The position numbers and the translations under genes were made by a program. Below are positions 3,640-40,032 of a DNA stretch of 64,000 nucleotides, one piece after another. The stretch comes from an uncultured Candidatus Saccharibacteria bacterium (lineage in GTDB: Bacteria > Patescibacteriota > Minisyncoccia > UBA6257 > 2-01-FULL-56-20), in assembly GCA_964505005.1 (NCBI GenBank), contig CAZDFQ010000004.1:5172-69171 (forward strand), in the 5' to 3' direction. The notes beneath the pieces are model-generated. The model was not told where the DNA came from and made no database searches. It saw only the letters and a program-made list of their open reading frames with translations. Each line of letters begins with the position of its first letter. The first letter of the stretch is position 1.

Positions 3640-3763
3640 ATCCTAAATTCTAAATCCTAATTTCTAAACAATCTCAAATGACCAAAATCCAAAATTAAAA
3701 AGTTTTAAAAATTTGAAATTAGAATTTTGAAATTATTTAGGATTTAGAGATTAGAGATTTATC
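3640..3763. repeat. Palindromic MITE-like intergenic element, family A ('ctaaatcctaat / tctaaacaatctcaaat' arms)
   Basis: Left arm 'aatcctaaattctaaatcctaatttctaaacaatctcaaatg' and a near-reverse-complement right arm 'atttgaaattagaattttgaaattatttaggatttagagattagagattta'. Sits just upstream of the rsmA start. Confidence 0.6.
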
Positions 3764-3769
3764 AAAACT

Positions 3770-4635: not shown

Positions 4636-6930
4636 ATGGGGCCCGCTGACATCAAAAAAATAATTACGGGATTTTTGGTGCTTTCGATTGTAACCGGCGT
4701 TTTAACGCTGGCGGTTTTCAACTTCACCGGTTCCCAGCCGGCAGCTTCTCCTAATTTGATAAGTGCGGTTGGCGAAAATTCCCTTTCCGTAGCCAGCAGC
4801 GCGCTTGTCGAGTCGTTGCCGGAAACTAATGTTCAAGCAGGGATGCAAACAAAGAATCCTGCTGCGGTTTCAACAGCTGGTTTGGCAGCGGACAATTCCA
4901 ATCTGACCCAGAATTTCGCCAGGGTTTTCACCCAAGAAGTGCTCGACAATAATCCTGGCGGCCCGCAAACCGACCTCAATGGCCAGCAAACTCTAAATCT
5001 GCCAACCGAAAACTATGCGCAGGAACTAATCCAAAAAGCCCTGGCCACCACGACCATTGAAATTGACGAAGAAATTCCGGCTTCGGCGATAAAGATAAAA
5101 AGTTTTTACGCGCCAGATGACCTCGCCAATTATTTTGAATCCGTTAATAAAATTCTTGCCGATGTCAGTTCAAGTACCGCTTCGCTCAATATCGCCAATC
5201 AGAGTTCCACGCCCGAAATCCTAACGCTCAGCCAGCTGATTTTTGAAAGCGCTTTTCAGAAGCTGAAAGATATTTCCGTACCTCAGCCATTGGCCGAGAT
5301 GCACAAAACGATTCTGAAATTCTTCGGCAATCAGAACAAGGTTCTTGAAATTGCGTCCGGTTATCAAAGCGACCCGTTAAAAGCGGTTCTGGTTTTGCAA
5401 TCAAACAGCCAGCTCGTCGAACGAGACCTGGGGAATTTTCAAAATGAATTTCAAAAAATCAAGCCGGTTTTAGCTTCGGAAAATTACTTAAAAAATAGCC
5501 GCGATGATTTATCGATTCTGCAGAAACTTTTAGGAGTTGAAGTTGCCTATGCTATTCCAGTTACCGAAGTAGGAGCGGCGCTGGCAGCGGCCATTGCGCA
5601 GGTTGCCGACTGGGTTACCTCTCTCGCCAAGGACGCGGCCCAATGGGCCTATGATACGGCGCTCCGCATCGCGGTCAAGCTGCTTATCGACACCTTTCAA
5701 AACCAGGTGGTCAACTGGATTGCCGGCAACGGCGATCCCAAATTCATCACCAACTGGAGCGGGTTTTTGAGCGATGTGGCTAATAAGGCCATTGGCCAAA
5801 GCATTTATCAGGTTGCGCCGTTTCTCTGTTCGGGCATCGGCCCGCTTTTGAGGATAGCGGTCACTCCGGTGCCGGCCATTGATACCTCGGTGCGCTGCAC
5901 ATTGAATCAGGTGGTGAAAAATGTCACTGATTTTTACAACAGCTTCCAGAACGGCGGCTGGGTGGCTTATGGCGCCACGCTCCAACCAGGAAATAATTTT
6001 TTCGGCAACTTAATCCAGCTTAATGACGTCATTACCAGAAAAGCTGCCGAGGCGGTTGGCACGGCCCAGAGCAAAGCCATAGCTGGCCAAGGCTTTAAGG
6101 GCATTACCAAATGCGTCAAATCGCACGAGGAAAGAGGCCAGCCCATTGCCTGGGATGAAACCGGAAGGCCCACTGATTACGGACCGTCGGTAACTGTCTG
6201 CGACCAAGAAATTGAGACCACGCCGGGCGGCGCCGTGGCCAACGCGCTTTTTGGTTCTATGAACTGGCAAGTGGGTGAAATCGTCAACGCTCGAAGATTT
6301 GAAGAATTAGCGGGTGCCATTATCCAGGCCGGCATCAACCGGATGATAAAGGAAGGGCTTAATGCTTTGACCGAAGCGAGGAACCCAAAGCCGGTAAGTT
6401 TCGCTGGGGCCATCCCAGCTGGCGTTCCCAACCCGGGCGATATTTCTTCGGTTAAAGCCAGCATGCAGAGTTTGGTCAGCTCGTATCAGGAAAACGGCAC
6501 TTTCCAAAAATTCCAAGATGTGGCTGACGCGGATAGTCAGTGGTTGGCTTTAATGCCGCAGGTCGTCAATACCCTGAATCAGGTGGCTTCCAGCTGCTCA
6601 TCTTTAGCTTCCAGCGCCAAGCAAAAAATCAGCGACCTTAACTCGCTGAACAGCAATGTGACAACCGAATTCCAAAGCGCCTCGGCCAACACTTACAGTT
6701 CGCTCAAACTGCAGATTGACAATGCCACCAGCACGGAGGCGCTTAACAATATGCTCAACCGGCTCCAGGGCTTGGCTTCGGTAGGCGTGGACGTCCAGGC
6801 GGCCCAGGCCCGGCTGACCAAGCTGAAAAATCTTTCCGCCAATGCCCGGGCCAACCTGCCGGACAACTGCAACGTCCCGCTAATTGATAGCTCGATATAT
6901 TATCAGCCAACCGGCTACGAAAGCCGTTAA
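4636..6930 (+). CDS. Large secreted/membrane-anchored protein of the T4SS-like locus, unknown function
   Basis: N-terminal TM anchor, Q/N/S/A-rich. Shares a Cys-loop motif 'KCVKSHEERGQP...VTVCDQEIETT' with the next gene ('KCVKSRQEYKPG...VTICEQEENEN'). Confidence 0.55.
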   Translation: MGPADIKKIITGFLVLSIVTGVLTLAVFNFTGSQPAASPNLISAVGENSLSVASSALVESLPETNVQAGMQTKNPAAVSTAGLAADNSNLTQNFARVFTQEVLDNNPGGPQTDLNGQQTLNLPTENYAQELIQKALATTTIEIDEEIPASAIKIKSFYAPDDLANYFESVNKILADVSSSTASLNIANQSSTPEILTLSQLIFESAFQKLKDISVPQPLAEMHKTILKFFGNQNKVLEIASGYQSDPLKAVLVLQSNSQLVERDLGNFQNEFQKIKPVLASENYLKNSRDDLSILQKLLGVEVAYAIPVTEVGAALAAAIAQVADWVTSLAKDAAQWAYDTALRIAVKLLIDTFQNQVVNWIAGNGDPKFITNWSGFLSDVANKAIGQSIYQVAPFLCSGIGPLLRIAVTPVPAIDTSVRCTLNQVVKNVTDFYNSFQNGGWVAYGATLQPGNNFFGNLIQLNDVITRKAAEAVGTAQSKAIAGQGFKGITKCVKSHEERGQPIAWDETGRPTDYGPSVTVCDQEIETTPGGAVANALFGSMNWQVGEIVNARRFEELAGAIIQAGINRMIKEGLNALTEARNPKPVSFAGAIPAGVPNPGDISSVKASMQSLVSSYQENGTFQKFQDVADADSQWLALMPQVVNTLNQVASSCSSLASSAKQKISDLNSLNSNVTTEFQSASANTYSSLKLQIDNATSTEALNNMLNRLQGLASVGVDVQAAQARLTKLKNLSANARANLPDNCNVPLIDSSIYYQPTGYESR

Positions 6931-6975
6931 GTCAAATAGCAAAAAGCAAATAGCAAATAACAGAAATAAAGACAA

Positions 6976-9117
6976 ATGAAAAGTCCTCGAGCGACGAAGA
7001 AATTAAATCTATTTAAGACCGGCGGCTTGATTACTGTTTTGATAATTCTGCTTTTGCTGACGCCCAGGGTTCTTGCCGTAACAGGAGTAGAGGACTACAC
7101 TGCCCCTTCGTTGGGAGGCCTGCTTGGTTTCATCGGGGATGTTACTGGCACTGTTGTCGGCTGGGTGGTTTATGTCTTCAACTATATAGTCGCCACGATT
7201 TTCGGCGTTTTCATCGCCATTATCACCTATTTTATAGAAGTAGTTCTTCAATATAATTACAACATTGTAAATTCCCGCCTTGTCACCATCGGCTTTGGAA
7301 TAACTTTAGCCATTGCCAATCTCGGCTTTGTTTTGGCCATCATCATCATCGCCATTGCCACCATTCTTCGCCGTCAAACCTACGGCATTAAAGAAGTGCT
7401 CTGGAAGCTGGTGGCCGCGGCCGTGTTGGTGAATTTCAGTTTGGCGATTGCCGGCACAATTTTGACTTTCTCCAATACTCTGACTTCCTACTTCCTGAAT
7501 AGTTTTAATCCGGCTGGCACTGGAAGTTCTTTCGGGGCTTTTGCCAATGCCATTGCCGGCGCTTTTGCCCCGCAAAAAGTATTCCTGGCCATGGACCAAG
7601 GCGCCACTGTTAAAAAATGCGTCAAATCACGCCAAGAATATAAACCTGGCATGAGTCAGCCGGTAACCATCTGTGAGCAGGAGGAAAACGAAAACGCCGG
7701 TAATCTTATTGACCCCAATAAAATAAAGAACGCGGCTGGCGCCACCAAAACTTTCGGGGGCATTCTAGTCCCCCTGCTTAATCTTTTTTTCCCAACAATT
7801 TTTCTCATTATCGCGGTCATCGCGATGGCCGCTCTCTGGATTATGCTGCTGATTCGCTATGTATTTTTAGGCATACTTTTGATTTTAATGCCTTTGGCCT
7901 GGTTGTTGTGGATTTTCCCCTTAACCAAGGGTCAGTGGCAGAAATGGTGGGATGAGTTCATTAGGTGGACTTTTTTTGCTCCGGTGGTCGTGTTCTTTAT
8001 CTATCTCGCGATTTTGACAGCCGGCGGAATGGCTGGCCAAGGAGTGGTTATTGACGAACAAGGAGCAGCTGCTCAAATCTCTAAAGTAATTGGCACCACC
8101 AGAGGGCTTTCGCCGTCAATAGAAACAATGCTCCAGATGGCAATGCTGACCGCAATGTTGGTGGCCGGCCTGATTATAGCTAACAAAATGGGCATTATGT
8201 TCGCTGGCGCAGCCGTAGGCGCGGCCACCGCGGTCGGCATGGGGTTCGGCGCATGGGTTGGCCGACGGGGCAAACAGCTCGGCGGCGCAACCCTTGATAC
8301 ATTGAGGGCGCGCAAGGCGGCTGAAAGACTTCAGCGGGTAGGAGCTGGAAGAGGCGCTGTTGGGAAGCTACTTACTTTGCCGGTGCGCTATGCCGGCCGG
8401 GGTATAGAAGCTATCGCGGTAGCCACCAGAGAAAGCCTTGTAAAAGACGCGATGAAGCGCTTGGCGGGTAAAACCACTGGCGAGCTCTCTCACAATATGT
8501 CCACATTTACAGCTCCCGAAAGAATGGCGGCTCTCGAGATGCTCCGACAGAGCGGTGATGTATTCGACGCCAGCAAAACGGGCGGAGTTAAAGAGGTATT
8601 CTCTCGGTATGTAGACCAAAATCTTTATAAGCGGTACGGCCAGCAGAACTACTATGACAACCTCACGAAAGGTAAGGGCGCTATGGCAAATCCTGAGGCA
8701 ATCCAAGCCGCTATTATTGGAGACCTGAAAAAACTTGACGACGCATTAAAGGGAATCATTCCCTCTATAACAAAAAGTCATATTGGCGACAACAAAAACC
8801 TTAATGATATTTTCGCCGGTAAAACCGACGAGGAAAAACTTTTGAATAAGTACCAGATTCGCAACCTCCTTACCAGCAATTTTGCTTTGATATCCTCGAT
8901 AATCCCGAAGCTAAACTCGAGCAGTAGAAACAATTTCCAAAAACTAACTTATGAAGCATTGGAAGAGCTTCTAAACGAAAAGAGAATAGAGGGAAAAGAT
9001 TACGACGACCTTAAAAAGGAGTTTGGAGGAATAATGCTGAATAATACCAGGGGCTTAATTGTCGAAGCCGGCGTTCCGCCAACTGCTCCAACGGCGACAC
9101 CAACCGCCGGAACATAA
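6976..9117 (+). CDS. Polytopic membrane protein, VirB6/TrbL-like (T4SS-like inner-membrane component)
   Basis: Signal peptide followed by at least 8 hydrophobic helices and a large soluble C-terminal domain. Sits in a same-strand cluster with VirB3/VirB4/VirB2-like genes. Confidence 0.5.
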   Translation: MKSPRATKKLNLFKTGGLITVLIILLLLTPRVLAVTGVEDYTAPSLGGLLGFIGDVTGTVVGWVVYVFNYIVATIFGVFIAIITYFIEVVLQYNYNIVNSRLVTIGFGITLAIANLGFVLAIIIIAIATILRRQTYGIKEVLWKLVAAAVLVNFSLAIAGTILTFSNTLTSYFLNSFNPAGTGSSFGAFANAIAGAFAPQKVFLAMDQGATVKKCVKSRQEYKPGMSQPVTICEQEENENAGNLIDPNKIKNAAGATKTFGGILVPLLNLFFPTIFLIIAVIAMAALWIMLLIRYVFLGILLILMPLAWLLWIFPLTKGQWQKWWDEFIRWTFFAPVVVFFIYLAILTAGGMAGQGVVIDEQGAAAQISKVIGTTRGLSPSIETMLQMAMLTAMLVAGLIIANKMGIMFAGAAVGAATAVGMGFGAWVGRRGKQLGGATLDTLRARKAAERLQRVGAGRGAVGKLLTLPVRYAGRGIEAIAVATRESLVKDAMKRLAGKTTGELSHNMSTFTAPERMAALEMLRQSGDVFDASKTGGVKEVFSRYVDQNLYKRYGQQNYYDNLTKGKGAMANPEAIQAAIIGDLKKLDDALKGIIPSITKSHIGDNKNLNDIFAGKTDEEKLLNKYQIRNLLTSNFALISSIIPKLNSSSRNNFQKLTYEALEELLNEKRIEGKDYDDLKKEFGGIMLNNTRGLIVEAGVPPTAPTATPTAGT

Positions 9118-9127
9118 CAGCAATAGA

Positions 9128-10279
9128 ATGGCAATAGTAATTACCCAACAACAATTTGATTCGCGCTGGGACACCCTTGCCGAGGTTTTGCGCGAGGCGC
9201 TGGTTTCCAAAGCAAACTCCGACATTATCAGAAAAACTGCGGAGGCCGAGCATCTGCCGGAAGAAAAGGCGTCGATTATTTCAGGGCTGACCGGTTCGGT
9301 GCTTATGGGCTTTCTCCATCCTGAGGATTTAGCCGAAGAAATACAAGATTATCTGAAAATCAACGCCAATATTGCTTCAGCTATCGCCAATGCCATAAAC
9401 ACCCGAATTTTTTCTCCGCTTAGAAATGAGCTGGAAAAAGTTTATGCGCCGGCCTCAGGGGTTGAGCCAATAATCGTTGAGGAAATTAAAAGACCCTTCG
9501 ATATAACTCAGGGCAAGCCGGCAGCGCCTGCTCCAGCCGGAGCGCCTGTTTCGCCAGTATCAATAAAAATAACGCCGGCGCCAGAACCAAAACGAAATGA
9601 GGGAGCCATTCCTGTTCCACCTGCAGTGAGCTTGTCGAATCTGCCGCCCAAAATAATTTCTTCATCAGAAGAAATAGTTGCGCCTTCGACTTCCGCCCCT
9701 AAAATAGAAATTTCCAAGCCAACCGAACCAGCGCCGACAGGTATTCCCCAGCCGCCGGCGAAGAGCGTGGTCGAACCGCCGCCTCTAAAACCAATAGAAG
9801 AAAAAATACCGGTCCCGCCCAGGCCGCCAGCGCCGCCTGCGGTGAGCCAGGCCGAACCGTTTATTCTTCACGAAGAAACAAAATTCGAGCCGGTGAAACC
9901 AATCGCTGGATTCAAGCTGGAAATTCCCCGACCAGAATCAAAAGAAACAAAAATCGGGATGCCGCCCCGGCCAGCCCAGATAGAAATCGGCGGCCTCGAG
10001 ACAAAACCGCCAGCGCCGCCAGCAAGCCTGAAGCCGGATGCTACGCCTCGTTTGGTCCACTATACCGAATACCGGACGCCGCTCGGCCAGCCGCCAACGC
10101 CGGCCAGCGCTCCGGCTGTTGCGCCAGCGGCCAAGGTCGTCGAAATCAAAATGCCGCCGGCGCCGCCAAAACCGCCGGCAGCGAAGTCCTTGGTTGAATC
10201 CGGCCGAACGTCCGGGGCTAAACCGCTTCTGGAAACATTGAAAGAACCGGGGCTGCCGGCCCCGGAAAAACGTGAATAA
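9128..10279 (+). CDS. Hypothetical protein with proline-rich disordered C-terminal half
   Basis: The ORF track start 9059 overlaps the upstream gene. The ATG at 9128 ('MAIVITQQQFDSRW') is the first start after the upstream stop. Long PAPxPP low-complexity tail. Confidence 0.5.
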   Translation: MAIVITQQQFDSRWDTLAEVLREALVSKANSDIIRKTAEAEHLPEEKASIISGLTGSVLMGFLHPEDLAEEIQDYLKINANIASAIANAINTRIFSPLRNELEKVYAPASGVEPIIVEEIKRPFDITQGKPAAPAPAGAPVSPVSIKITPAPEPKRNEGAIPVPPAVSLSNLPPKIISSSEEIVAPSTSAPKIEISKPTEPAPTGIPQPPAKSVVEPPPLKPIEEKIPVPPRPPAPPAVSQAEPFILHEETKFEPVKPIAGFKLEIPRPESKETKIGMPPRPAQIEIGGLETKPPAPPASLKPDATPRLVHYTEYRTPLGQPPTPASAPAVAPAAKVVEIKMPPAPPKPPAAKSLVESGRTSGAKPLLETLKEPGLPAPEKRE

Positions 10280-10733
10280 ATCTCTAATCTCTAAATCCTA
10301 ATCTCTAAACAATCTCAAATGCTAAAAAACCAAAATGATAAACCATACGACTTAGAAAACAGAACTTTCGAATTTGCGCAAGGTGTTGTCAGTTATTTCA
10401 AAATACTTCCTAAAACTATTTCCAATGTAGAAATCGCAAAGCAGGGAATTCGCTCTGCCGCCTCGGTAGGCGCAAACTTTATTGAAGCTAATGAAGCATT
10501 AAGTAGGAAAGATTTTTTGATGAGAGTAAAAATCTGCAGAAAAGAAGTTAAAGAAACGATCTATTGGTTAAAATTATCAGAACCGAATGAGACGCAAAAG
10601 AATAAAACAGGATGAGCTTATCACTGAAGCGACTGAACTTATGAAAATATTCGGTGCAATTATTGAAAAATCGAAAAAATGATTTTGAGATTTGAAATTA
10701 TTTAGAAATTAGAGATTAGAATTTAGAGATTAT
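10280..10733. mobile_element. Family A inverted-repeat pair bracketing a four-helix-bundle gene (MITE-like cassette)
   Basis: Left arm 10280-10318 'taatctctaaatcctaatctctaaacaatctcaaat' runs straight into the ATG. Right arm 10679-10733 'gattttgagatttgaaattatttagaaattagagattagaatttagagatta' is its approximate reverse complement. Confidence 0.5.
10319..10615 (+). CDS. Four-helix-bundle protein (TIGR02436 / '23S rRNA intervening-sequence protein' family), frameshifted near its 3' end
   Basis: 'IRSAASVGANFIEANEALSRKDFLMRVKICRKEVKETIYWLKL' matches the family core. The expected C-terminal helix ('ELITEATELMKIFGAIIEKSKK*') continues in the +1 frame to 10680 after an A-run. Confidence 0.6.
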   Translation: MLKNQNDKPYDLENRTFEFAQGVVSYFKILPKTISNVEIAKQGIRSAASVGANFIEANEALSRKDFLMRVKICRKEVKETIYWLKLSEPNETQKNKTG

Positions 10734-10741
10734 TTTTATTC

Positions 10742-11251
10742 ATGCAGTTCCAAGTCCCCCAATTCATCGATATCGAGGATAAAATCGTCGGGCCGCTGAC
10801 GCTTAAACAATTTCTTTATTTAGCCGCGGCCGCTGGTTTAAGTTTTATGCTTTTTTTCGCCGTCCAAACCTGGCTTTGGTTCATCCTCTCCATTTTTTTG
10901 GTGGGGGCGGGCGTCGGCTTGGCATTCGTGAAAATAAACGGCCGGTCCCTGCTCCGCATTATCTTGTCGGCCATCCATTTTTACTGGCAGCCCCAAACTT
11001 ACGTCTGGCAGCCGGATAATCCCGATTTGCCGAAAACCGAATCAACCCTCCAAAAATTCAGCGAGGGACTGTCGCTCGAAAGTATTATTTCCGGCTTGTC
11101 ACTCCGTAATGTTTGGCAGAATGTCCAAACCGGCAGCAAAACTTTGGTTGGAGAAAGCCAGAGAGGATACCGCCGCGCCAAAGAGCGTTATGAAATAATC
11201 CAGAAAATCACTGGCGAGCGCCGGGCCGCCAGAAGAGTGGACTACCGGTAA
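10742..11251 (+). CDS. VirB3/PrgI-like small membrane protein (T4SS-like locus)
   Basis: N-terminus 'QFQVPQFIDIEDKIVGPLTLKQFLYL' followed by two TM helices, the VirB3-like pattern of Gram-positive T4SS. Sits immediately upstream of VirB4. Confidence 0.45.
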   Translation: MQFQVPQFIDIEDKIVGPLTLKQFLYLAAAAGLSFMLFFAVQTWLWFILSIFLVGAGVGLAFVKINGRSLLRIILSAIHFYWQPQTYVWQPDNPDLPKTESTLQKFSEGLSLESIISGLSLRNVWQNVQTGSKTLVGESQRGYRRAKERYEIIQKITGERRAARRVDYR

Positions 11252-11335
11252 CACATATCACAAAACACAAATCAAAGTGCAAAATGACAATGAAAAATGA
11301 TAAAATGAATTATTGGACATTTTGATTTTTGAGAT

Positions 11336-12034
11336 TTGAATTTTAAATTTATTATTATGCCCAAAGAGTTCGGCAATGCCCAAGATTTGGTGACCCTCGA
11401 AGAAATTCGTCAGGATGCCGTTATTTTAAAAGACGGCAGCTTGCACCAGCTGGTGATGGTTGGCGGTCTGAATTTTTCCCTCAAATCAGAGGCTGAACAG
11501 ACGATGATAACCCAGGCCTATCAGAATTTTCTGAACAGTTTGGATTTCCCTGTTCAAATCGTCATTCATTCAAGGAAAATAAACATTGACGATTATCTTG
11601 GCGTTTTAACGGAGCAGATAGCCAAAGAGCCGTCCGAGCTTCTCCAGGGCCAGATTGCCGAATACAAAGAATTCGTGGCTGGTTTTGTCCGGGAAAACCC
11701 CATAATGGCCAAGGTTTTCTTGGTGGTAGTTTCTTTTTCTCCTATTTTCTTTTCCGCTGGTAAACAGGCAGTTGCCAGCTTTCTTCCTTTTTTAAAAAAG
11801 AAAAGTAAGGAGGAAGAAAAAAAATCGCTCCAAGAAAAGGAGGCGGAACTTCAAAAAAATTTGGAGCAGCTTCGCCAGAGAGTGAACCAGGTAGTCAGCG
11901 GCTTGCAGGCCATCGACCTAGAGGCCACGGTATTGGGCGATGAAGAGTTGGTGGAGCTTTTTTACAATTTTTACAACCCCGGCACCATCGAAAAAGAGAA
12001 AATTGCTGCTGATGACCAGACAAAAAAATCCTAA
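11336..12034 (+). CDS. virB4: VirB4/TrbE-family conjugal-transfer ATPase, N-terminal fragment (gene split by repeat insertion)
   Basis: 'DAVILKDGSLHQLVMVGGLNFSLKSEAEQTMITQAYQNFLNSLDFPVQIVIHSRK' matches the VirB4 N-terminal motif. The stop codon lies inside the family A repeat arm. Confidence 0.55.
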   Translation: MNFKFIIMPKEFGNAQDLVTLEEIRQDAVILKDGSLHQLVMVGGLNFSLKSEAEQTMITQAYQNFLNSLDFPVQIVIHSRKINIDDYLGVLTEQIAKEPSELLQGQIAEYKEFVAGFVRENPIMAKVFLVVVSFSPIFFSAGKQAVASFLPFLKKKSKEEEKKSLQEKEAELQKNLEQLRQRVNQVVSGLQAIDLEATVLGDEELVELFYNFYNPGTIEKEKIAADDQTKKS

Positions 12035-12254
12035 ATCCTAATATCTAAATCCTCCAATTGGCAACGAGGAGAAAGTAAATGAGAATACATTTATTTTCGG
12101 CGAGCCCTGCCTGCCGGCAGGCAGGGAACCGATTGAGGAAGCGAAGCTTCATTAACAACCACAAAATTCAGATCTCAAAAATTTTCATTTTGGTCATTTA
12201 TAACATTTGGGCTTGTTTAGAGATTGGGGTTTAGAAATTAGATATTAACATAAG
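12035..12254. mobile_element. Family A MITE-like element with conserved ~120-bp core, inserted between the two VirB4 fragments
   Basis: Arms 'ctaaatcctaatatctaaatcc' and 'gtttagagattggggtttagaaattagatatta'. The core 'cctccaattggcaacgaggagaaagtaaatga...ttcattaacaa' is shared with the copy at 39833-40030. Confidence 0.55.
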
Positions 12255-13982
12255 ATGGCGGAAACAAATTTTCAAAATCTAAAAAAGGTTATTACGCCGG
12301 CTGGGATTCAGGTGGATTCCAACCATCTTAAGGTCGGCGATAAGTTCGTAAAAACGTTTTTCATTTTTTCTTATCCGCGCTATCTTTCCAGCGGCTGGTT
12401 CGATTCCCTAATTAATCTGCCTAATCTTTTTGACGCCGCCATTTTCATCAACCCCGTGGATACGGCTCTGGCGCTCAAAAATCTCCGAAAAAAGGCGGCC
12501 CAAATAGAATCGCAGATAAGCGACCAGCAGGAAAAAGGCCTGGTGCGCGACCCGATGCTGGAAACCGCTCTCCGCGATGTCGAACTGCTCCGCGACACCC
12601 TCCAGCAGGCCCAAGAGAAACTTTTCAGTGTCGGCGTCTATATAGCGATTTACGCTGATACGTTTGATGATTTGGCGCGACTGGAAAGCCAAATTGTTTC
12701 TTCGATGGAGGCCAAACTTGTTTACATCAAGCCAGCGCTTTTCCAACAGCTGGACGCTTTTTTGTCGGTAATGCCGCTCGGCCAGGATAAAATTTCCGTA
12801 ACCCAACCAATGAATTCAGCGCCGATATCTTCGTTTTTCCCGTTTGTCTCTGAAGATTTGACTTCTGACCGAGGGGTTCTTTACGGCATCAATCGTCATA
12901 ATAATAGTTTGGTGATTTTTGACCGGTTTTCTTTAGAAAATGCCAACCAAGTGGTTTTTGCCAAAGCCGGCGCTGGCAAGAGTTACGCCACCAAATTAGA
13001 GATAATCAGGTCTTTGATGATGGGCGTGGATGTGCTCGTCATTGACCCGGAAAATGAATACAAGCGGCTGGCCGAAAGCTTTGGCGGCAGTTTTTTCAAC
13101 ATTTCACTTTCTTCTCGCGAACACATCAATCCATTCGACATTCCGATTGTGCCGGAAAACGAAACAGCAGCTGATGTCCTGCGGTCGCACATCGTCACCC
13201 TGGCTGGCCTGGTCAAAATGATGCTCGGCAAGGTAACGCCGGAAGAAGACGCGATTCTTGACCGGGCTATCACCGAAACCTACGCCTCGCGAGAGATAAC
13301 GCCTAATGAAGATTTTTCCAAGGCCCAGCCGCCCCTGCTTGAAGATTTGGAAACGGTTTTGAAAAATCTCGAAGGGGGTCGCAGTTTGGCCGAACGGCTT
13401 TATAAATACACCAAAGGGAGTTTTGCCGGATTTGTGAACCAGCCGACCAATGTGGATGTGAATAATCGGCTAATTGTTTTTTCCATCCGCGACCTAGAAG
13501 ACGAGCTTCGACCGGTGGCGATGTACGTGATTCTCGGTTTCATCTGGAATCTGATTCGCTCCAAGATGAAAAAACGGATTATGATTGTTGACGAGGCCTG
13601 GTGGATGATGAAATACGAAGAAAGCGCTTCGTTTTTGTTCGGCTTGGCCAAACGTTGCCGCAAATACTATCTCGGGCTCTCGACTATCACCCAAGACGTG
13701 GAGGATTTTTTGCGTTCGCCTTACGGTCGGCCGATTATCACCAACTCTTCCTTGCAGCTCCTTTTACGGCAAGCACCGGCCACCATTGACTTGGTGGCCA
13801 AGGCTTTTGATTTGACCGAGGCGGAAAAAGATTATCTGCTGACCGCCGAGGTGGGCACCGGGCTTTTCTTTGCGGGCCGCCGGCATGTGGCGATTCAGAT
13901 AATCGCTTCCTACTTCGAAGACCAAATAATCACCACCAGCCCGCAGCAGTTGTTGGAAGAAAGAGCCGGAGAAGTCCGATAA
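12255..13982 (+). CDS. virB4: VirB4/TrbE-family conjugal-transfer ATPase, C-terminal ATPase fragment
   Basis: 'YPRYLSSGWFDSL', 'FLSVMPLG', Walker A 'AKAGAGKSY' and Walker B-like 'IMIVDEAWWMM'. The combined 232+575 aa equals a typical VirB4 length. Confidence 0.65.
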   Translation: MAETNFQNLKKVITPAGIQVDSNHLKVGDKFVKTFFIFSYPRYLSSGWFDSLINLPNLFDAAIFINPVDTALALKNLRKKAAQIESQISDQQEKGLVRDPMLETALRDVELLRDTLQQAQEKLFSVGVYIAIYADTFDDLARLESQIVSSMEAKLVYIKPALFQQLDAFLSVMPLGQDKISVTQPMNSAPISSFFPFVSEDLTSDRGVLYGINRHNNSLVIFDRFSLENANQVVFAKAGAGKSYATKLEIIRSLMMGVDVLVIDPENEYKRLAESFGGSFFNISLSSREHINPFDIPIVPENETAADVLRSHIVTLAGLVKMMLGKVTPEEDAILDRAITETYASREITPNEDFSKAQPPLLEDLETVLKNLEGGRSLAERLYKYTKGSFAGFVNQPTNVDVNNRLIVFSIRDLEDELRPVAMYVILGFIWNLIRSKMKKRIMIVDEAWWMMKYEESASFLFGLAKRCRKYYLGLSTITQDVEDFLRSPYGRPIITNSSLQLLLRQAPATIDLVAKAFDLTEAEKDYLLTAEVGTGLFFAGRRHVAIQIIASYFEDQIITTSPQQLLEERAGEVR

Positions 13983-14044
13983 TGATTTGGATGAATGCTT
14001 TCTAACGCCCTATTCGGATGCTATAATAGTTTTAGAAACTTTAA

Positions 14045-14758
14045 ATGGCTGACGTGGAGAAATTAAGCATTCTGGATCCGCTGGTTATTTTCGCGGCCAT
14101 CGCTGCTTTTATAGGAGATATTTCCTGGCTTATAGCAATTTTTGCTCTGGCCGCGCCTGTTATCGGGCTTCCCCTTGCTCTTTATATTTTGGTCGGGCGT
14201 TATGTGGCCGCAACAATTGTGGGTTTTTCGCTTTGGGCTAAAGCAAAAGGATGGTTAGCTAAAATAGTTTTGATATTGGCTGTGCTTATCCCTTTGCCCT
14301 TGCTTGTTCTTGGTATCATCTTAGTTGTCCTTCTCTCCAATCGCTTTATTAGGTTTTTGGCCGAACAGGCGGTCATTGCCGTTGTCGGCACGGCCACGGC
14401 CGGAGCCGGAGTTGTTGCCGGCGAGGCTGTGGCGGTTGGCGAAGTAGCGGCCGGCGCGGCAGAAATAGCGGCGGCCGGAGGAGAAATTACGGCTGGCGCC
14501 GAGGCGGCCGCCGAAGCCGGAATAACAGCGGAGCGCGCTGTGACTGCCGAAGAAACGGCCACAGCCGAGGCCGGAGTCAGGCCGCCGGAGGCGCCGGAAA
14601 AAGAAATAGCCCCAGAAGCTTTGGGTGAAGAACCAACGCCCTTTGAAAAGCTCCGGGAATTAACCGAAAAAATGCCCGAGGCGCCGGAGAAAAAAGAAAA
14701 AGAGGAAGAGGTTGAAATTGACGATGAAGCCAACGAGGTTAATTTGAAAGAAACATAA
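14045..14758 (+). CDS. Membrane protein with Ala/Glu-rich low-complexity C-terminal tail
   Basis: Four predicted TM helices, then 'AGAGVVAGEAVAVGEVAAGAAEIAAAGGE...' and an acidic tail. Confidence 0.45.
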   Translation: MADVEKLSILDPLVIFAAIAAFIGDISWLIAIFALAAPVIGLPLALYILVGRYVAATIVGFSLWAKAKGWLAKIVLILAVLIPLPLLVLGIILVVLLSNRFIRFLAEQAVIAVVGTATAGAGVVAGEAVAVGEVAAGAAEIAAAGGEITAGAEAAAEAGITAERAVTAEETATAEAGVRPPEAPEKEIAPEALGEEPTPFEKLRELTEKMPEAPEKKEKEEEVEIDDEANEVNLKET

Positions 14759-14836
14759 TGCTAATAATGCGGAATAGCATGCGAATGATGCGGAAGATTT
14801 TCGCGGTATTCGCATAATTAATTCGAGAATTCGCAT
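14750..14836. repeat. Family B palindromic octamer array (mirrored 'ATGCGAAT ... ATTCGCAT' units) in promoter region
   Basis: 'aatgcggaatagcatgcgaatgatgcggaagattttcgcggtattcgcataattaattcgagaattcgcattatg'. Ends with the conserved 'ttcgcattatg' terminal. Confidence 0.55.
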
Positions 14837-14883
14837 TATGCTCAAGGGCAAATGAGTTGGAGTAATGAATTTTAAAAGCAAAG

Positions 14884-15570
14884 ATGAAGATTAAACTATT
14901 GACAAGTCTAATTATCGGTCTGACCGCGATGGTATTTTTTGCCGTCTCTTCAAAGGCCCAAACATCCAAGCCACAGTTTTTAATTACCTGGAAAGCCGAT
15001 TCTTATGCGCCGGCTGATTTCCAAGGGAAAATTTTGCCGACCGCCGGTTCTTTAATCACGACTTCTTTTGAGCTGATTGACCAGGGCAAGCCAGCCGACC
15101 TATCCCAAGAAATGGTTTACTGGTATGTGAACAATGATTTTTTGCGGGGCGGCAACGGACTGCAGAGCATTCGGTTCCAAGCGCCGCAGGCGGCTGGCGG
15201 CGCCATTGATTTAAGAGTTGAAATCCCTAATTACAAGCCGGGCGCTCAACTGAAAACAATCGAGATACCCGTGGCCAGTCCAAAGGCCGTCATCGAGGTG
15301 CCTTTTCCTAACGGAGAATTCTCGGCCTCTCAGCTGGAATTAACTGGCCAGGCATATTTTTTTAATGTTAGAAGTCTATCGCGATTAAACTTTTCCTGGA
15401 ATATAAATGGCCAGACACCAACTGGCGCTGAAAATCCGGCCACCCTAAAAGTAAATATTGGCCAGGATGTGCCGGTCGGTTATCCGGTCAATATAGTCTT
15501 TACTGCTCAAAACCCAGACAGTGTTTTGGAAAAGGCGTCTAAAAATATTTCTTTGGTTTACAAGCCATGA
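14884..15570 (+). CDS. Secreted protein (signal peptide), unknown function, T4SS-like locus
   Basis: N-terminal 'MKIKLLTSLIIGLTAMVFFAVSSKA' signal peptide. ATGA overlap with the next gene. Confidence 0.5.
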   Translation: MKIKLLTSLIIGLTAMVFFAVSSKAQTSKPQFLITWKADSYAPADFQGKILPTAGSLITTSFELIDQGKPADLSQEMVYWYVNNDFLRGGNGLQSIRFQAPQAAGGAIDLRVEIPNYKPGAQLKTIEIPVASPKAVIEVPFPNGEFSASQLELTGQAYFFNVRSLSRLNFSWNINGQTPTGAENPATLKVNIGQDVPVGYPVNIVFTAQNPDSVLEKASKNISLVYKP

Positions 15571-16037
15571 TTAAGAAATTGTTTTTTTCCTTTTTAATTT
15601 CGGCCTTGTTCTGGGGAATATCCAACTTTGCGAGCGCGGTTAGTGTTTCGGTTATTTCCGGCCAGGGCCCATCTGCGGCTCCGGCTTCCAGCCCCGGCGT
15701 CTGGATTGCCGAGTCCTACAAGTATTCCTTGATTCTGGTGGGGCTGCTGGCTTTTGCCGTGATTGTCTGGGCCGGGCTGCGCTATGCGATGGCTGCCGGC
15801 AATCCTTCAACCCAGAGCGATGCCAGAGACCAAATATTGCAGGCGCTTTTAGGGCTACTGCTTCTGTTGGGCGCGACCATTGTGCTTTATACCATTAATC
15901 CCAACATCATCAGCAAGGAAGGAGAATTGCCAGCGTTGCCGACCCTAGAGAGTGTTAGCGGGCAAAAAACCCAGCAGCAAACAGGAGAACAGCCGTATAC
16001 TAATCCTGCTAACCCATATATTACTCCCCGAAAATGA
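15567..16037 (+). CDS. VirB2/TrbC-like pilin candidate
   Basis: Signal peptide 'ISNFASA', then two hydrophobic helices in a ~130-aa mature region. ATGA-coupled within the locus. Confidence 0.45.
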   Translation: MIKKLFFSFLISALFWGISNFASAVSVSVISGQGPSAAPASSPGVWIAESYKYSLILVGLLAFAVIVWAGLRYAMAAGNPSTQSDARDQILQALLGLLLLLGATIVLYTINPNIISKEGELPALPTLESVSGQKTQQQTGEQPYTNPANPYITPRK

Positions 16038-17263
16038 AAAAGTTCCTTGTTACAATTTTTATAATCTTGCTCGTCGCCGGCCTGATTTTCTTGGGCTATT
16101 ATTTCCGTTTCCAAAAAGAGCAACTGGTTTCTTCGCCGACCAACGAGATTGGCGGCTTGCCGGCCAGCCAAGCGCCCGCCAACGCTTCTTCAGCGCCAAC
16201 AGCCGGCGCTAATCAGCAATCACAATTGAATGTTGTCATTAATAATCCGGTTCTCGGCTACTTCGTTGACAGCAATAGCACCTTATTCGTCCAGCCGGAC
16301 GGTCAAATCATAAAATTGGCCGATAATAAAACCGAGGTTTTGAGCGCGAGCGCTATCAACAACATTGCGGCGGCTTCTTTTTCTTTTGACGGCAAAAAAG
16401 TTTTGGCGATAATGAAAGACCAGTCCGGGGAACAGGCGAGTGTTTTTGACACAACGAAAAAAACCTGGCAGCCCCTGCCAGGAAATAGCCAAGCGGCGGT
16501 TTGGTCGCCAACTGATTACCAAATAGCTTATTTTTCTAAAGCTGCTGACTCGAGCTTGCTTTCATTCTGGGATGCTGGCAGCTCAACAGCTAAGCCAAAA
16601 ACCATACTTCGGCTCCGTCAAGAAGATGCGGCACTCAGCTGGCCGGTTCCTGATAAAATTTTTATAAGCGACAAATCATCGGCTGTTTCAAATTCGTCTG
16701 TTTGGGTCTTTGGCGTCAGGGAAAAAACTCTTTCGCCGGTTATTCAAGGCCGGCCTGGCCTAGAAACTATTTGGAGCTCGTCTTCTCCCATGTTCGGCCT
16801 AGTTTTTTCGGCCAACCAGAATGCTCAGGGCGGCCAGTTGGAGTTGGTTAGTGGTTCCGGGGCGCTGCTTAAAAATATTAATTTTTTGACTTTGGCTTCG
16901 AAATGTCTTTTTTATGAAAAAACGGTTGGTCAGGCAACTAGTACCACCGGGGCAACTGCTATTGCGACTACCACCCAACCAAAACCAGCGGCTAAACCAA
17001 GGCCCCAAACAGTCCTGGTTTGCGCTGTGCCACGAGACCGAGCGACTTTAGACATTACTGCTTTACCGGATGATTATGAAATGAAAGCGCTTTTTACGGC
17101 TGATGATTTTTTTGAAATCAACATTGATGAGGCCAGCATAAAAACTATTTTCAATGGCCGGGCTAAGAATTTTGATGCGACTAAGCTTAAAATTTCCGGA
17201 CAGAATCTTTTCTTCATCAGTCGCTTCGACGAGAAGGTTTATTCTTTGCCGCTTATCCCCTAA
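16034..17263 (+). CDS. Secreted/anchored protein, possible beta-propeller fold
   Basis: N-terminal TM helix, Ser/Ala-rich, no recognisable catalytic motifs. Last gene of the same-strand locus. Confidence 0.4.
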   Translation: MKKFLVTIFIILLVAGLIFLGYYFRFQKEQLVSSPTNEIGGLPASQAPANASSAPTAGANQQSQLNVVINNPVLGYFVDSNSTLFVQPDGQIIKLADNKTEVLSASAINNIAAASFSFDGKKVLAIMKDQSGEQASVFDTTKKTWQPLPGNSQAAVWSPTDYQIAYFSKAADSSLLSFWDAGSSTAKPKTILRLRQEDAALSWPVPDKIFISDKSSAVSNSSVWVFGVREKTLSPVIQGRPGLETIWSSSSPMFGLVFSANQNAQGGQLELVSGSGALLKNINFLTLASKCLFYEKTVGQATSTTGATAIATTTQPKPAAKPRPQTVLVCAVPRDRATLDITALPDDYEMKALFTADDFFEINIDEASIKTIFNGRAKNFDATKLKISGQNLFFISRFDEKVYSLPLIP

Positions 17264-25993: not shown

Positions 25994-25996
25994 AAA

Positions 25997-26136
25997 ATTC
26001 TAAATCCGAAATCCTAATTTCTAAACAAATCCTAAATATCAAAATCCAAAATCCTAATAATCGAGACCCGTTTTTGGAATTTTTAATTTGGGGTTTTGGA
26101 ATTTGTTTAGGATTTAGATATTAGGATTTAGAGATT
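25997..26136. repeat. Family A palindromic MITE-like element between ruvC and yebC
   Basis: 'ctaaatccgaaatcctaatttctaaacaaatcctaaat...tttgtttaggatttagatattaggatttagagatta' with a short central spacer. Confidence 0.55.
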
Positions 26137-39832: not shown

Positions 39833-40030
39833 ATGATTGAATCTCTAATTCCTAATCTCTAAATCCTCCAATTGGCAGCGAGGAGAAAGCAAATGAATTA
39901 GACATTTATTTTCGACGAGCGAACCAATTGATGAAATGAAGTTTCATTAACAAATCCAAAACTCAAATTTCAAAACGATTTAGAATTTTGGGTTTTGATA
40001 TTTGAGATTGTTTAGAGATTAGGGTTTAGA
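39833..40030. mobile_element. Family A MITE-like element with the conserved core (second copy of the virB4-splitting element)
   Basis: 'aatcctccaattggcagcgaggagaaagcaaatgaattagacatttattttcgacgagcg...gaagtttcattaacaaatcc' is co-linear with 12058-12170. Confidence 0.55.
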
Positions 40031-40032
40031 AA

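What the first reader, a model, noticed from the sequence alone, without database searches (positions are those of the whole stretch)
4636..17263. Twelve-gene, same-strand type IV secretion-like / conjugation-like locus with paralogous Cys-loop proteins
The locus contains a VirB6/TrbL-like polytopic protein, a VirB3/PrgI-like two-TM protein, a VirB4 ATPase in two pieces, and a VirB2/TrbC-like pilin candidate. It also has several secreted proteins linked by ATGA overlaps. The first two large proteins share a conserved loop, 'KCVKS-x(20-30)-V[TI][VI]C[DE]QE'. That suggests duplication of an extracellular disulfide-bonded domain. No relaxase, coupling protein (VirD4) or VirB11 is present in the window. 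Composition is host-like. The locus therefore looks like a dedicated secretion or uptake machine rather than an integrated conjugative element.
Basis: partly seen in the sequence, partly recalled or inferred. Interest (0 to 1): 0.55.

Follow-up and report, generated by a model that had tools for sequence, protein, structure and literature searches.

The report
Origin-proximal type IV secretion locus of Patescibacteria
This is the chromosomal type IV secretion system already described for Patescibacteria (CPR bacteria), which lacks a relaxase; it is an ordinary member of that kind, with three unreported details: a possible VirB5-like subunit, a cysteine hairpin shared by two subunits, and two hairpin cassettes inside the operon.

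Summary
Window 4636-17263 (+) encodes a Patescibacteria-type T4SS. It has VirB4 (CD1110-type, above the curated cutoff) and a separately encoded VirB4 N-terminal piece (TrsD-like). It also has PrgI/VirB3, an extended VirB6/TrbL-like polytopic protein and a VirB2-like pilin. Five further accessory genes are conserved. Gene order, including the flanks ksgA and jag-yidC-rnpA-dnaA-dnaN, is kept in 80 Paceibacteria genomes. No relaxase, coupling protein or VirB11 lies in the window. Exactly this system was published in 2023-2025, so it is a new member of a known kind.

Corrections:
- ORF1 and ORF2 are not paralogues. They share only a roughly 25-36 aa Cys hairpin. It is invariant in the large ORF1 family but is an insertion unique to this genome's ORF2, and the resemblance is statistically marginal.
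- One of the "twelve genes" is an unrelated four-helix-bundle (23S-rRNA-IVS-type) gene inside an inverted-repeat cassette. Another is a spurious 51-aa ORF in a second cassette.

New lead: the ORF1 family (about 5,400 cluster representatives) carries, internally, the N-terminal motif of VirB5/TrbJ. It weakly matches DUF4141, a protein encoded next to traJ in Bacteroides conjugative transposons. The test was inconclusive.

The parts
4636..6930 (+). ORF1, 764 aa. It has an N-terminal membrane anchor and a large Cys-containing, presumably extracellular, body. Four Cys are invariant in the family (C398, C421, C493, C522). It is a candidate VirB5-like stalk/tip or adhesin subunit; function is otherwise unknown.
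   Evidence: Hydropathy. No Pfam, NCBIfam or PDB match. 24 close homologues. The family has 5394 cluster representatives at E<=1e-3. Invariant Cys. Always encoded just upstream of the VirB6-like gene. Weak recurrent DUF4141 hits and a VirB5-type motif at aa ~296-341. The AF2 model is poor, pLDDT 58.9.
6103..6210 (+). Cys hairpin of ORF1 (aa 490-525, C493...C522), conserved throughout the ORF1 family.
   Evidence: Modelled as a beta-hairpin.
6976..9117 (+). ORF2, 713 aa. An 'extended' VirB6/TrbL-like polytopic membrane protein with a ~300-aa helical-repeat (ARM/HEAT-like) C-terminal domain.
   Evidence: 579 homologues. Family member P0116 passes the Pfam TrbL cutoff (27.2 against 25.9, aa 110-329). 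AF2 pLDDT 76.8. Foldseek hits TrwI/VirB6 of R388 with prob 0.93-0.97, TMt 0.43-0.47, but E 0.45-1.0. Hydropathy.
7597..7710 (+). Lineage-specific ~30-aa insertion in a loop of ORF2. It carries the hairpin C215...C233 that resembles the ORF1 hairpin.
   Evidence: Absent from 39 aligned and 119 listed homologues. BLASTP E=0.019. 3/1000 shuffles reach the score. The 14-nt run AAATGCGTCAAATC occurs at 6109 and 7615. No such sharing in 33 other genomes.
9128..10279 (+). ORF3, 383 aa. It has a conserved ~105-aa helical N-terminal domain followed by a long proline-rich, disordered-looking region with no TM segment. It is a conserved accessory protein of unknown role.
   Evidence: Syntenic in 35/80 loci.
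10279..10732 (+). Inverted-repeat cassette inserted between ORF3 and prgI. It carries a four-helix-bundle (23S rRNA IVS protein family) gene at 10319-10615, whose C-terminus is frameshifted (the remainder reads on to ~10681). It is not a T4SS part.
   Evidence: PF05635 8e-13 and TIGR02436 2e-16. 49-nt arms 78% complementary, 24-nt arms 96%. Fold z=-3.1. Flank pairing z=-11. Present in only 5/80 related loci, at two different slots.
10742..11251 (+). ORF5, 169 aa. PrgI/VirB3-like two-TM protein.
   Evidence: PF12666, 38.4 bits, above cutoff. Found in 74/80 loci.
11336..12034 (+). ORF6, 232 aa. TrsD-like protein, the separately encoded N-terminal domain of VirB4.
   Evidence: NF041427 1.2e-10, NF045975 1.4e-11, TIGR00929 4.6e-5. 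Found in 78/80 loci. Separate from VirB4 in 76/78 and fused in L025 and L048.
12035..12254 (+). 220-nt spacer holding a second inverted-repeat element with no gene. It contains the palindrome CCTGCCTGCCGGCAGGCAGG and is a paralogue of the element at 39838-40040.
   Evidence: Fold z=-4.98. 83% identical to the 39.9-kb copy. The median TrsD-VirB4 gap in relatives is ~61 nt.
12255..13982 (+). ORF7, 575 aa. VirB4 ATPase core (MPF_FATA / CD1110 type). Walker A (AKAGAGKS) and Walker B (IMIVDEAW) are readable in the sequence.
   Evidence: NF045971 2.7e-114, 383 bits against a cutoff of 325. PF19044 7e-25. Sequence. 59-78% identical in 80 Paceibacteria genomes.
14045..14758 (+). ORF8, 237 aa. About four TM helices followed by an Ala/Glu-rich acidic tail. 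A conserved positional accessory protein.
   Evidence: Positional homologues in 32 loci, with a conserved ...NHPK... motif. No relation to the VirB6-like family.
14884..15570 (+). ORF9, 228 aa. Exported protein with two Ig-like domains.
   Evidence: Signal-like N-terminus. Family members hit BiPBP_C (5/30, 3.9e-7) and PKD (3/30). Found in 35/80 loci.
15567..16037 (+). ORF10, 156 aa. VirB2-like T4SS pilin: signal peptide plus two hydrophobic helices.
   Evidence: PF18895, 30.2 bits against a cutoff of 26.6. NF045849 1e-3. Hydropathy. ATGA overlaps on both sides.
16034..17263 (+). ORF11, 409 aa. Membrane-anchored TolB-like beta-propeller.
   Evidence: The family profile hits TolB chains in the PDB at 1.2e-13. 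PD40 and DPPIV_N hits in members. N-terminal TM. Found in 29/80 loci.

Best explanation
This is the chromosomal, origin-proximal type IV secretion system characteristic of Patescibacteria, here a Paceibacteria/Parcubacteria genome. It derives from the monoderm MPF_FATA conjugation machinery but has no relaxase or coupling protein beside it.

Proposed working:
- The VirB4 ATPase (ORF7), together with its separately encoded N-terminal domain (TrsD-like ORF6), docks on the membrane through PrgI/VirB3 (ORF5) and the extended VirB6-like channel protein (ORF2).
- This motor extracts and polymerises the VirB2-like pilin (ORF10) into a pilus or stalk.
- The extracellular or anchored accessory proteins build or decorate the part that crosses the wall and touches the host cell. 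These are ORF1 (disulfide-stabilised), ORF9 (Ig-like) and ORF11 (TolB-like propeller).
- The machine serves the epibiotic lifestyle, meaning exchange of proteins or other molecules with a host bacterium, not plasmid transfer.

Shown here: the identities of VirB4, TrsD, PrgI and the pilin; the synteny; the absence of conjugation genes in the window. Inferred: the VirB6 role of ORF2 (transitive homology plus fold), the roles of the accessory proteins, and the biological function (taken from the Saccharibacteria Tn-seq literature).
For: Profile hits above curated cutoffs for VirB4, PrgI and the pilin, and a TrsD hit at 1e-10. ORF2: the family reaches Pfam TrbL, and its model's best specific matches are TrwI/VirB6 of R388. 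Gene order uvrD-ksgA-ORF1-ORF2-ORF3-prgI-trsD-virB4-ORF8-ORF9-pilin-ORF11-jag-yidC-dnaA is kept in 80 Paceibacteria species genomes. The TrsD/VirB4 split is ancestral. Host-like GC. No relaxase, T4CP, VirB11 or integrase among the other window ORFs.

Published descriptions match point by point. The VirB4 clade nests in MPF_FATA, with TrsD, PrgI and VirB2 pilins near virB4, no relaxase, and proximity to dnaA, dnaN, ksgA and rnpA (PMC12102498). The T4SS genes are essential in Southlakia epibionticum, and no recognizable coupling or relaxase protein was found for that T4SS (PMC10633639; PMC12857230).
Against: ORF2 itself hits no curated profile, and the Foldseek E-values to VirB6 are not significant (0.45-1.0). 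No VirB8-like or VirB1-like gene was recognised inside the block; an M23 peptidase lies 3 kb upstream on the other strand. Only 64 kb of the genome is visible, so a T4CP or relaxase elsewhere cannot be excluded. VirD4-like genes are common elsewhere in Patescibacteria genomes (PMC12102498). Function is extrapolated from Saccharibacteria, a different class. No pilus has been seen in any of these organisms.
Confidence: 0.9

Rival explanations
1. The machine is a DNA-uptake (competence) T4SS, like ComB of Helicobacter or the archaeal Ced system. It would import host DNA and nucleotides rather than secrete.
For: Like ComB and Ced, it has no relaxase or coupling protein nearby. VirB4 gives weak hits to CedB and CedD (3e-10, 5e-4). 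In class ABY1 the T4SS loci lie next to comF, recG and radA (PMC12102498). CPR bacteria cannot make nucleotides.
Against: In S. epibionticum competence depends on T4P and ComEC. Deleting comEC abolishes transformation but not viability, whereas the T4SS is essential (PMC12857230). The CedB/CedD scores are far below cutoff (39 against 700 bits). No competence genes lie next to this locus.
Confidence: 0.12
2. The block is a decayed integrated conjugative element whose relaxase, T4CP and integrase were lost. The split VirB4 and the frameshifted four-helix-bundle gene would be signs of decay.
For: VirB4 is in two ORFs. One gene in the block is frameshifted. Repeat elements sit in two spacers.
Against: The split is conserved in 76/78 related genomes, with both halves at 36-78% identity. 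The whole block and its housekeeping flanks are syntenic across 80 species. GC is host-like. The Walker motifs are intact. No integrase or att-type tRNA flank was seen; the only tRNA is at 49.3 kb. The frameshifted gene belongs to an inserted cassette, not to the T4SS.
Confidence: 0.03
3. The shared Cys hairpin of ORF1 and ORF2 is a chance resemblance between two independently evolved disulfide loops, not a copy.
For: BLASTP gives E=0.019 only. 20/500 codon shuffles give an exact DNA run at least as long. Other ORF2 homologues evolved unrelated Cys pairs in the same loop. An equally good chance hit (E=0.002) appears between ORF1 and ORF2 of another genome in unrelated regions.
Against: Only 3/1000 shuffles of the insertion match ORF1 as well, and the match falls exactly on ORF1's invariant hairpin. 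Both segments are modelled as beta-hairpins with the Cys in equivalent places. The ORF2 segment is an insertion unique to this genome.
Confidence: 0.5

Closest known systems
Patescibacteria-clade T4SS (Quinonero-Coronel et al. 2025, PMC12102498), and the essential T4SS cluster SEML1_0006-0019 of Southlakia epibionticum (Wang et al. 2023, PMC10633639)
   Same: It has an MPF_FATA-type VirB4, a separate TrsD-like gene, PrgI/VirB3, an extended VirB6-like protein with a helical-repeat C-terminal domain, and a VirB2-like pilin in the cluster. No relaxase or T4CP lies nearby. It is chromosomal and sits next to dnaA, dnaN, ksgA and rnpA.
   Different: It has a single pilin gene rather than an array of six. 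There is one VirB6-like gene rather than two, and no lysozyme or peptidase genes directly downstream of virB4. Its accessory set is Paceibacteria-specific (ORF1, ORF3, ORF8, ORF9, ORF11). Two inverted-repeat cassettes are inserted in the operon.
Gram-positive conjugation systems of the MPF_FATA class: pGO1 Trs (TrsC/TrsD/TrsE) and pCF10 Prg/Pcf (PrgH/PrgI/PrgJ)
   Same: The gene order is VirB6-like, VirB3-like, (TrsD), VirB4. It has a monoderm architecture without VirB7/9/10. TrsD is a separate N-terminal VirB4-like protein, as in pGO1 (PMC12102498).
   Different: Those systems are plasmid-borne, have a relaxase, a T4CP and PrgB-type adhesins, and lack a VirB2 pilin. This locus is chromosomal, lacks a relaxase and has a pilin.
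R388 Trw / VirB-type T4SS stalk (a TrwJ/VirB5 pentamer on a TrwI/VirB6 pentamer; PDB 7O3V, 8RT9)
   Same: The ORF2 model's best specific structural matches are TrwI chains. ORF1 lies immediately upstream of the VirB6-like gene, as virB5 does. The ORF1 family carries the VirB5-type motif A-x-A...[IV]PV.D...LAK at a fixed internal position.
   Different: ORF1 is about 3.4 times as long as R388 TrwJ/VirB5 (764 vs 226 aa) and carries a 300-aa N-terminal anchored domain and two conserved disulfides. It shows no significant profile or fold match to VirB5. There is no outer-membrane complex.
23S rRNA intervening-sequence (IVS) elements encoding PF05635 four-helix-bundle proteins (also reported in CPR rRNA insertions, bioRxiv 10.1101/2024.02.27.582315)
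   Same: The gene at 10319-10615 is a PF05635/TIGR02436 member enclosed by long inverted repeats that can form a stem, as in rRNA IVSs.
   Different: It sits in a spacer of a protein-coding operon, not in an rRNA gene. Gene-less relatives of the hairpin occupy several other intergenic spacers of the window.

Membership tests
Patescibacteria-clade T4SS (MPF_FATA-derived) | VirB4 ATPase of the MPF_FATA/CD1110 type | tested here: met
   NF045971 scores 383.1 bits against a cutoff of 325, E 2.7e-114. PF19044 7e-25.
Patescibacteria-clade T4SS (MPF_FATA-derived) | VirB4 falls in the monophyletic Patescibacteria clade | tested here: inconclusive
   No tree was built. The 80 best relatives among GTDB species genomes (59-78% identity) are all CPR/Paceibacteria MAGs, which is consistent with clade membership.
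Patescibacteria-clade T4SS (MPF_FATA-derived) | Separate TrsD-like gene next to virB4 | tested here: met
   NF041427 1.2e-10, though at 41.5 bits it is below the family cutoff of 200. It is adjacent and separate in 76/78 related loci.
Patescibacteria-clade T4SS (MPF_FATA-derived) | PrgI/VirB3 homologue near virB4 | tested here: met
   PF12666 scores 38.4 bits against a cutoff of 27.
Patescibacteria-clade T4SS (MPF_FATA-derived) | VirB2-like pilin near virB4 | tested here: met
   PF18895 scores 30.2 bits against a cutoff of 26.6. Signal peptide plus two hydrophobic helices.
Patescibacteria-clade T4SS (MPF_FATA-derived) | No relaxase or T4CP beside the cluster; chromosomal context near dnaA, dnaN, ksgA and rnpA | tested here: met
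   Pfam scans of the other window ORFs. The flanking genes were identified. The rest of the genome is not visible.
Patescibacteria-clade T4SS (MPF_FATA-derived) | Required for epibiotic growth; secretes or exchanges substrates | not testable with these tools
   Known only from Tn-seq in Southlakia epibionticum (PMC10633639).
VirB6/TrbL (PF04610) | Match to the TrbL/VirB6 profile | tested here: inconclusive
   ORF2 itself has no hit. Family member P0116 (33% identical over 93%) scores 27.2 bits against a cutoff of 25.9, and P0087 scores E 0.0099. The precomputed label PF19590 appears on about 25 homologues. hhalign against TrwI aligns the conserved P/W motif region, but E is 0.071.
VirB6/TrbL (PF04610) | Polytopic (at least 5 TM) fold like solved VirB6 | tested here: inconclusive
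VirB5/TrbJ (candidate for ORF1) | Profile or fold match to VirB5/TrbJ | tested here: not met
   No Pfam, NCBIfam or PDB sequence hit. hhalign against TrwJ gives E 0.13-0.5. Against nine VirB5 sequences it gives E 0.01 with prob 4%. Foldseek of the low-confidence model finds no VirB5.
VirB5/TrbJ (candidate for ORF1) | N-terminal motif A-x-A / [IV]PV.D...LAK followed by a long helix; gene adjacent to virB6 | tested here: inconclusive
   The motif regex hits 5/9 VirB5, 29/169 ORF1-family members, 0/120 ORF2-family members and 4/1122 background ORFs. In the ORF1 family it sits at a fixed position. The window's ORF1 has the variant AYAIPVTEVG followed by helix 309-362. DUF4141 hits occur at the same spot in 8 of 93 members scanned. 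The gene is adjacent to the VirB6-like gene in all loci that have it. The motif is internal, not N-terminal.
Integrative conjugative element | Relaxase, coupling protein, integrase/att sites, patchy distribution | tested here: not met
   None were found in the window. The locus is syntenic in 80 species.
23S rRNA IVS four-helix-bundle protein (PF05635) | Profile match; ORF enclosed by a stem of inverted repeats; located in an rRNA gene | tested here: inconclusive
   Profile: met (48.9 bits against a cutoff of 33.8). Stem: met. rRNA location: not met, because it lies between ORF3 and prgI.

The most novel reading that the evidence does not exclude
ORF1 represents the missing VirB5-like stalk/tip subunit of the Patescibacteria T4SS. 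It would be a large, disulfide-stabilised family (about 5,400 cluster representatives) in which a VirB5/TraI(DUF4141)-type module, still carrying a fossil A-x-A/IPV.D N-terminus, is fused behind a membrane-anchored N-terminal domain. It would sit on the VirB6-like ORF2. In this genome ORF2 would have copied ORF1's invariant Cys hairpin into its own loop, giving the two stalk proteins a common contact surface.
Probability: 0.25. Interest if true: 0.55.

Novelty: new member of a known kind. Interest (0 to 1): 0.33.

Why it matters
The T4SS of Patescibacteria is one of the few molecular handles on how these ultrasmall epibionts exploit their hosts. It is essential in the one species tested, and nobody knows what it transports or how it crosses the envelope. 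This locus adds nothing new at the level of 'there is a T4SS'.

It does give a clean, fully syntenic Paceibacteria example with a defined ten-gene conserved set. It also points to a very large uncharacterised family (ORF1) that is always paired with the VirB6-like gene. If that family is a VirB5 analogue, then VirB2-like, VirB5-like and VirB6-like components would all be present in this monoderm system. That would make the idea of a conjugative-type pilus in monoderms directly testable.

Tried and rejected
- ORF1 structure: the AF2 model from 22 sequences is poor (pLDDT 58.9). Foldseek against the PDB gave only generic helical bundles, and the profile against PDB sequences gave nothing.
- ORF2 against PDB sequences, both as a single sequence and as a profile: nothing.
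- ORF8 compared with the VirB6-like family by hhalign: unrelated.
- ORF9 profile against the PDB: nothing significant.
- Rfam on the whole window found only one tRNA. No known RNA family covers the spacer elements.
- The core of the spacer element was not found in the 81 loci fetched up to that point, by exact-pattern search.
- The sigma-70 promoter scan was not above chance.
- The raw duplex energy of the four-helix-bundle gene flanks was uninformative, because GC-rich controls pair more strongly. I replaced it with shuffle z-scores.
- Rejected: 'VirB4 is a pseudogene split by frameshift'. The split is conserved.
- Rejected: 'the four-helix-bundle gene is the Avd of a DGR'. No reverse transcriptase was seen among the window ORFs scanned.

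Full report
OBSERVATION

Window 4636-17263 holds an uninterrupted run of + strand ORFs.
- ORF5 (10742-11251) is a PrgI/VirB3-family protein (PF12666, 38.4 bits, cutoff 27).
- ORF7 (12255-13982) is a VirB4 ATPase of the Gram-positive CD1110 type (NF045971, 383 bits, cutoff 325; TraG P-loop 7e-25).
- ORF6 (11336-12034) matches the N-terminal region of VirB4 proteins and the TrsD family (1e-11 and 1e-10).
- ORF10 (15567-16037) is a T4SS pilin (PF18895, 30.2 bits, cutoff 26.6).

ORF6 and ORF7 together tile a full-length VirB4 profile. ORF9/ORF10 and ORF10/ORF11 overlap by ATGA. GC content (0.45-0.50) is the same as in the rest of the window. The flanks are housekeeping genes. Upstream lie a Mg-chelatase-like (ComM-type) ATPase gene, an M23 peptidase, uvrD/pcrA and ksgA. 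Downstream lie jag (R3H), yidC, rnpA, dnaA and dnaN. Scans of the other window ORFs of about 250 aa or more found no relaxase, coupling protein, VirB11 or integrase. The only T2SSE-family ATPase (27887-29563) has an MshEN N-domain and is a PilB-type pilus ATPase.

WHAT IT IS

A 2025 study (PMC12102498) describes exactly this arrangement as the T4SS of Patescibacteria:
- a monophyletic VirB4 clade nested in MPF_FATA;
- TrsD as the most abundant accessory component next to virB4;
- PrgI/VirB3, divergent VirB6 and VirB2-like pilins;
- almost no relaxases;
- in Paceibacteria and Microgenomatia, a position next to dnaA, dnaN, ksgA, rnpA and rpmH.

Tn-seq in Southlakia epibionticum found the T4SS genes essential (PMC10633639). 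A late-2025 review calls these systems the newest members of the T4SS superfamily (PMC12857230).

I fetched 80 related loci from GTDB species genomes using VirB4 (59-78% identity, all CPR/Paceibacteria MAGs). The order uvrD-ksgA-ORF1-ORF2-ORF3-prgI-trsD-virB4-ORF8-ORF9-pilin-ORF11-jag-yidC-dnaA is conserved. The tblastn hit counts per 80 loci are: TrsD 78, PrgI 74, ORF2 47, pilin 41, ORF1 40, ORF3 35, ORF9 35, ORF11 29. Many contigs are truncated, and the distant proteins fall below the threshold. ORF8 has positional homologues in 32 loci. The locus is therefore a fixed chromosomal operon, not an integrated element.

THE SPLIT VirB4

TrsD and VirB4 are separate ORFs in 76 of 78 loci and fused in frame in two, L025 and L048. 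The split is ancestral and functional, and the two fusions confirm that the halves belong together. What is unusual here is the 220-nt spacer between them, against a median of about 61 nt in relatives. See 'side observation' below.

ORF2 AS VirB6

ORF2 itself matches no curated model. It has 579 homologues. One of them (P0116, 33% identical over 93% of ORF2) passes the Pfam TrbL/VirB6 cutoff over aa 110-329, and another scores E 0.0099. An AF2 model from 40 sequences has pLDDT 76.8, with the membrane helices above 85. Its best specific PDB matches are four TrwI/VirB6 chains of the R388 T4SS (prob 0.93-0.97, TMt 0.43-0.47), but the E-values are not significant. The C-terminal ~300 residues resemble ARM/HEAT repeats, as reported for the two large VirB6-like proteins of S. 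epibionticum. I accept 'extended VirB6-like' as probable, on transitive homology, fold and position.

ACCESSORY PROTEINS

- ORF11's family profile hits TolB beta-propellers at 1.2e-13 (PD40 repeats). It has an N-terminal anchor.
- Members of ORF9's family hit Ig-like BiPBP_C and PKD domains.
- ORF8 has about four TM helices plus an acidic Ala/Glu tail.
- ORF3 has a conserved 105-aa domain plus a proline-rich region.
- None of the four has an assigned T4SS role. No VirB8-like or VirB1-like gene was recognised in the block.

THE Cys LOOP

In ORF1 the hairpin C493...C522 is a family signature. C398, C421, C493 and C522 are invariant in 22 close and in 62 diverse members.

In ORF2 the segment carrying C215...C233 is a ~30-aa insertion absent from 39 aligned homologues. 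The motif occurs in none of the other 119 listed homologues. The partners of the closest ORF1 relatives also lack it. Some ORF2 homologues have unrelated Cys pairs in the same loop, which suggests the loop is extracytoplasmic.

The resemblance to ORF1 is modest:
- BLASTP E=0.019.
- 3 of 1000 shuffles of the insertion do as well.
- The longest DNA identity between the two genes is the 14-mer AAATGCGTCAAATC at the loop, and 20 of 500 codon shuffles match that length.
- No other of 33 genomes shows ORF1/ORF2 sharing, and one shows an equally 'significant' chance hit elsewhere.

The motif is therefore real and the two proteins are not paralogues. A local copy from ORF1 into ORF2 is about as likely as coincidence.

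A LEAD ON ORF1

The ORF1 family is large: 5,394 50%-identity cluster representatives at E<=1e-3, and 949 at E<=1e-30. The only recurrent T4SS-related Pfam hit is DUF4141. It appears in 5/62 members, 2/22 members and in P0253, with a best E of 7e-5. DUF4141 is a protein encoded beside traJ in Bacteroides conjugative transposons (PMC10434189). The hit maps to ORF1 aa ~296-341.

There the family reads A-[HY]-A, then 0-8 residues, then [IV][PV]V.D[PA]..LAK, followed by a long helix. This is the pattern at the mature N-terminus of VirB5 proteins that I fetched from plasmids: R388 TrwJ (...MAQGIPVFDG...) and eight others. A regex for the pattern hits 5/9 VirB5, 29/169 ORF1-family members, 0/120 ORF2-family members and 4/1122 background ORFs. 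In the ORF1 family it sits at a fixed position, 44 aa before the conserved W.QGGGKP.FIT motif. Some family members end in PKD, Ig or discoidin domains, as surface proteins do. ORF1 lies upstream of the VirB6-like gene, as virB5 does.

Against this, hhalign aligns the motif only at P=0.01 with probability 4%. TrwJ alone gives nothing. The poor ORF1 model finds no VirB5 fold. The regex was also written after I had seen the motif. I rate the VirB5-like reading at about 0.25-0.3. The papers I read report no VirB5-like component in the Patescibacteria clade.

SIDE OBSERVATION: HAIRPIN CASSETTES

ORF4 (10319-10615) is not a T4SS gene. It is a four-helix-bundle protein of the 23S-rRNA-IVS family (PF05635 8e-13; TIGR02436 2e-16), with a frameshifted C-terminus. 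It is flanked by A/T-rich inverted repeats: 49-nt arms at 78% complementarity and 24-nt arms at 96%.

The arm motif TAATCTCTAAA occurs 23 times in the window against 1.5 expected. The copies come as + then - pairs in intergenic spacers at 3.7, 10.3/10.7, 12.0/12.2, 26.0/26.1, 39.9/40.0 and 43.5/43.6 kb. The TrsD|VirB4 spacer element is 83% identical to the one at 39.9 kb. Both T4SS-locus elements fold into one long closing stem (z=-5.0 and -3.1).

In related genomes the four-helix-bundle gene occurs in only 5 of 80 loci, at two different slots of the operon. Each copy is enclosed by inverted repeats of different sequence; pairing z-scores range from -2.0 to -11 across the six cases, window included. 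This is the architecture of rRNA intervening sequences, here sitting in mRNA spacers. Whether the cassettes are mobile, and whether RNase III cuts the T4SS transcript at them, is untested.

VERDICT

This is a correct and careful first-stage call on a system that is already published, so it is a new member of a known kind. The conjugative-element alternative is excluded by synteny. A DNA-uptake role cannot be excluded, but the Saccharibacteria genetics argue against it. Interest is modest. It rests on the ORF1/VirB5 lead, the hairpin shared with ORF2, and the IVS-like cassettes.

Noticed in passing
window 3640-3765, 10279-10732, 12035-12254, 25995-26140, 39838-40040, 43490-43612: A family of intergenic inverted-repeat elements built from A/T-rich units. 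TAATCTCTAAA with at most one mismatch occurs 23 times against 1.5 expected. Each element has + arms followed by - arms that can close a long hairpin. The copies at 12.0 kb and 39.9 kb are 83% identical over ~200 nt. No Rfam family matches them.
   Followed up: partly
window 10319-10681; L008:5095-5457, L020:7875-8228, L026:8399-8764, L029:7866-8237, L034:5321-5692: A four-helix-bundle (23S rRNA IVS protein, PF05635) gene sits inside such a hairpin in a spacer of the T4SS operon. In relatives it is sporadic (5/80 loci) and occupies two different slots. It is always enclosed by inverted repeats whose sequence differs between genomes. The window's copy is frameshifted near its C-terminus. It looks like an rRNA-IVS-type cassette living in mRNA spacers.
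   Followed up: partly
L025 and L048 (TrsD-VirB4 region): In 2 of 78 related loci the TrsD-like and VirB4 reading frames are fused into a single ORF. This is a natural 'Rosetta stone' for the otherwise split VirB4.
   Followed up: partly
window 924-1676 (-): A secreted M23 peptidase lies 3 kb upstream of the locus on the opposite strand. M23 domains occur in VirB1-like proteins of Patescibacteria according to PMC12102498, so it might serve as the wall hydrolase. Its synteny was not examined.
   Followed up: no
window 27887-29563 (+): A PilB/GspE-type ATPase (T2SSE 5.6e-120 plus an MshEN domain), i.e. a type IV pilus motor, lies 10 kb from the T4SS locus.
   Followed up: no
window 50699-52006 (-) and 52065-53387 (-): Two adjacent class II aminoacyl-tRNA synthetase genes of the Asp/Asn/Lys type, each with tRNA-synt_2 plus an OB anticodon domain. 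They are tandem paralogues or an AspRS/AsnRS pair.
   Followed up: no
ORF2 homologues P0027, P0033, P0037, P0063, P0068, P0118: A subset of shorter VirB6-like homologues end in two CxxC pairs (for example C520, C523, C540, C543). This suggests a zinc-ribbon C-terminus in place of the helical-repeat domain.
   Followed up: no
window 56690-56880 (+): By eye, the sequence encodes a short protein (...KLIYAELCLNSEDAKKRERYLKTTGGRRFLAKRL...) that resembles the small GIY-YIG nuclease-like proteins common in CPR genomes. This was not tested with profiles.
   Followed up: no
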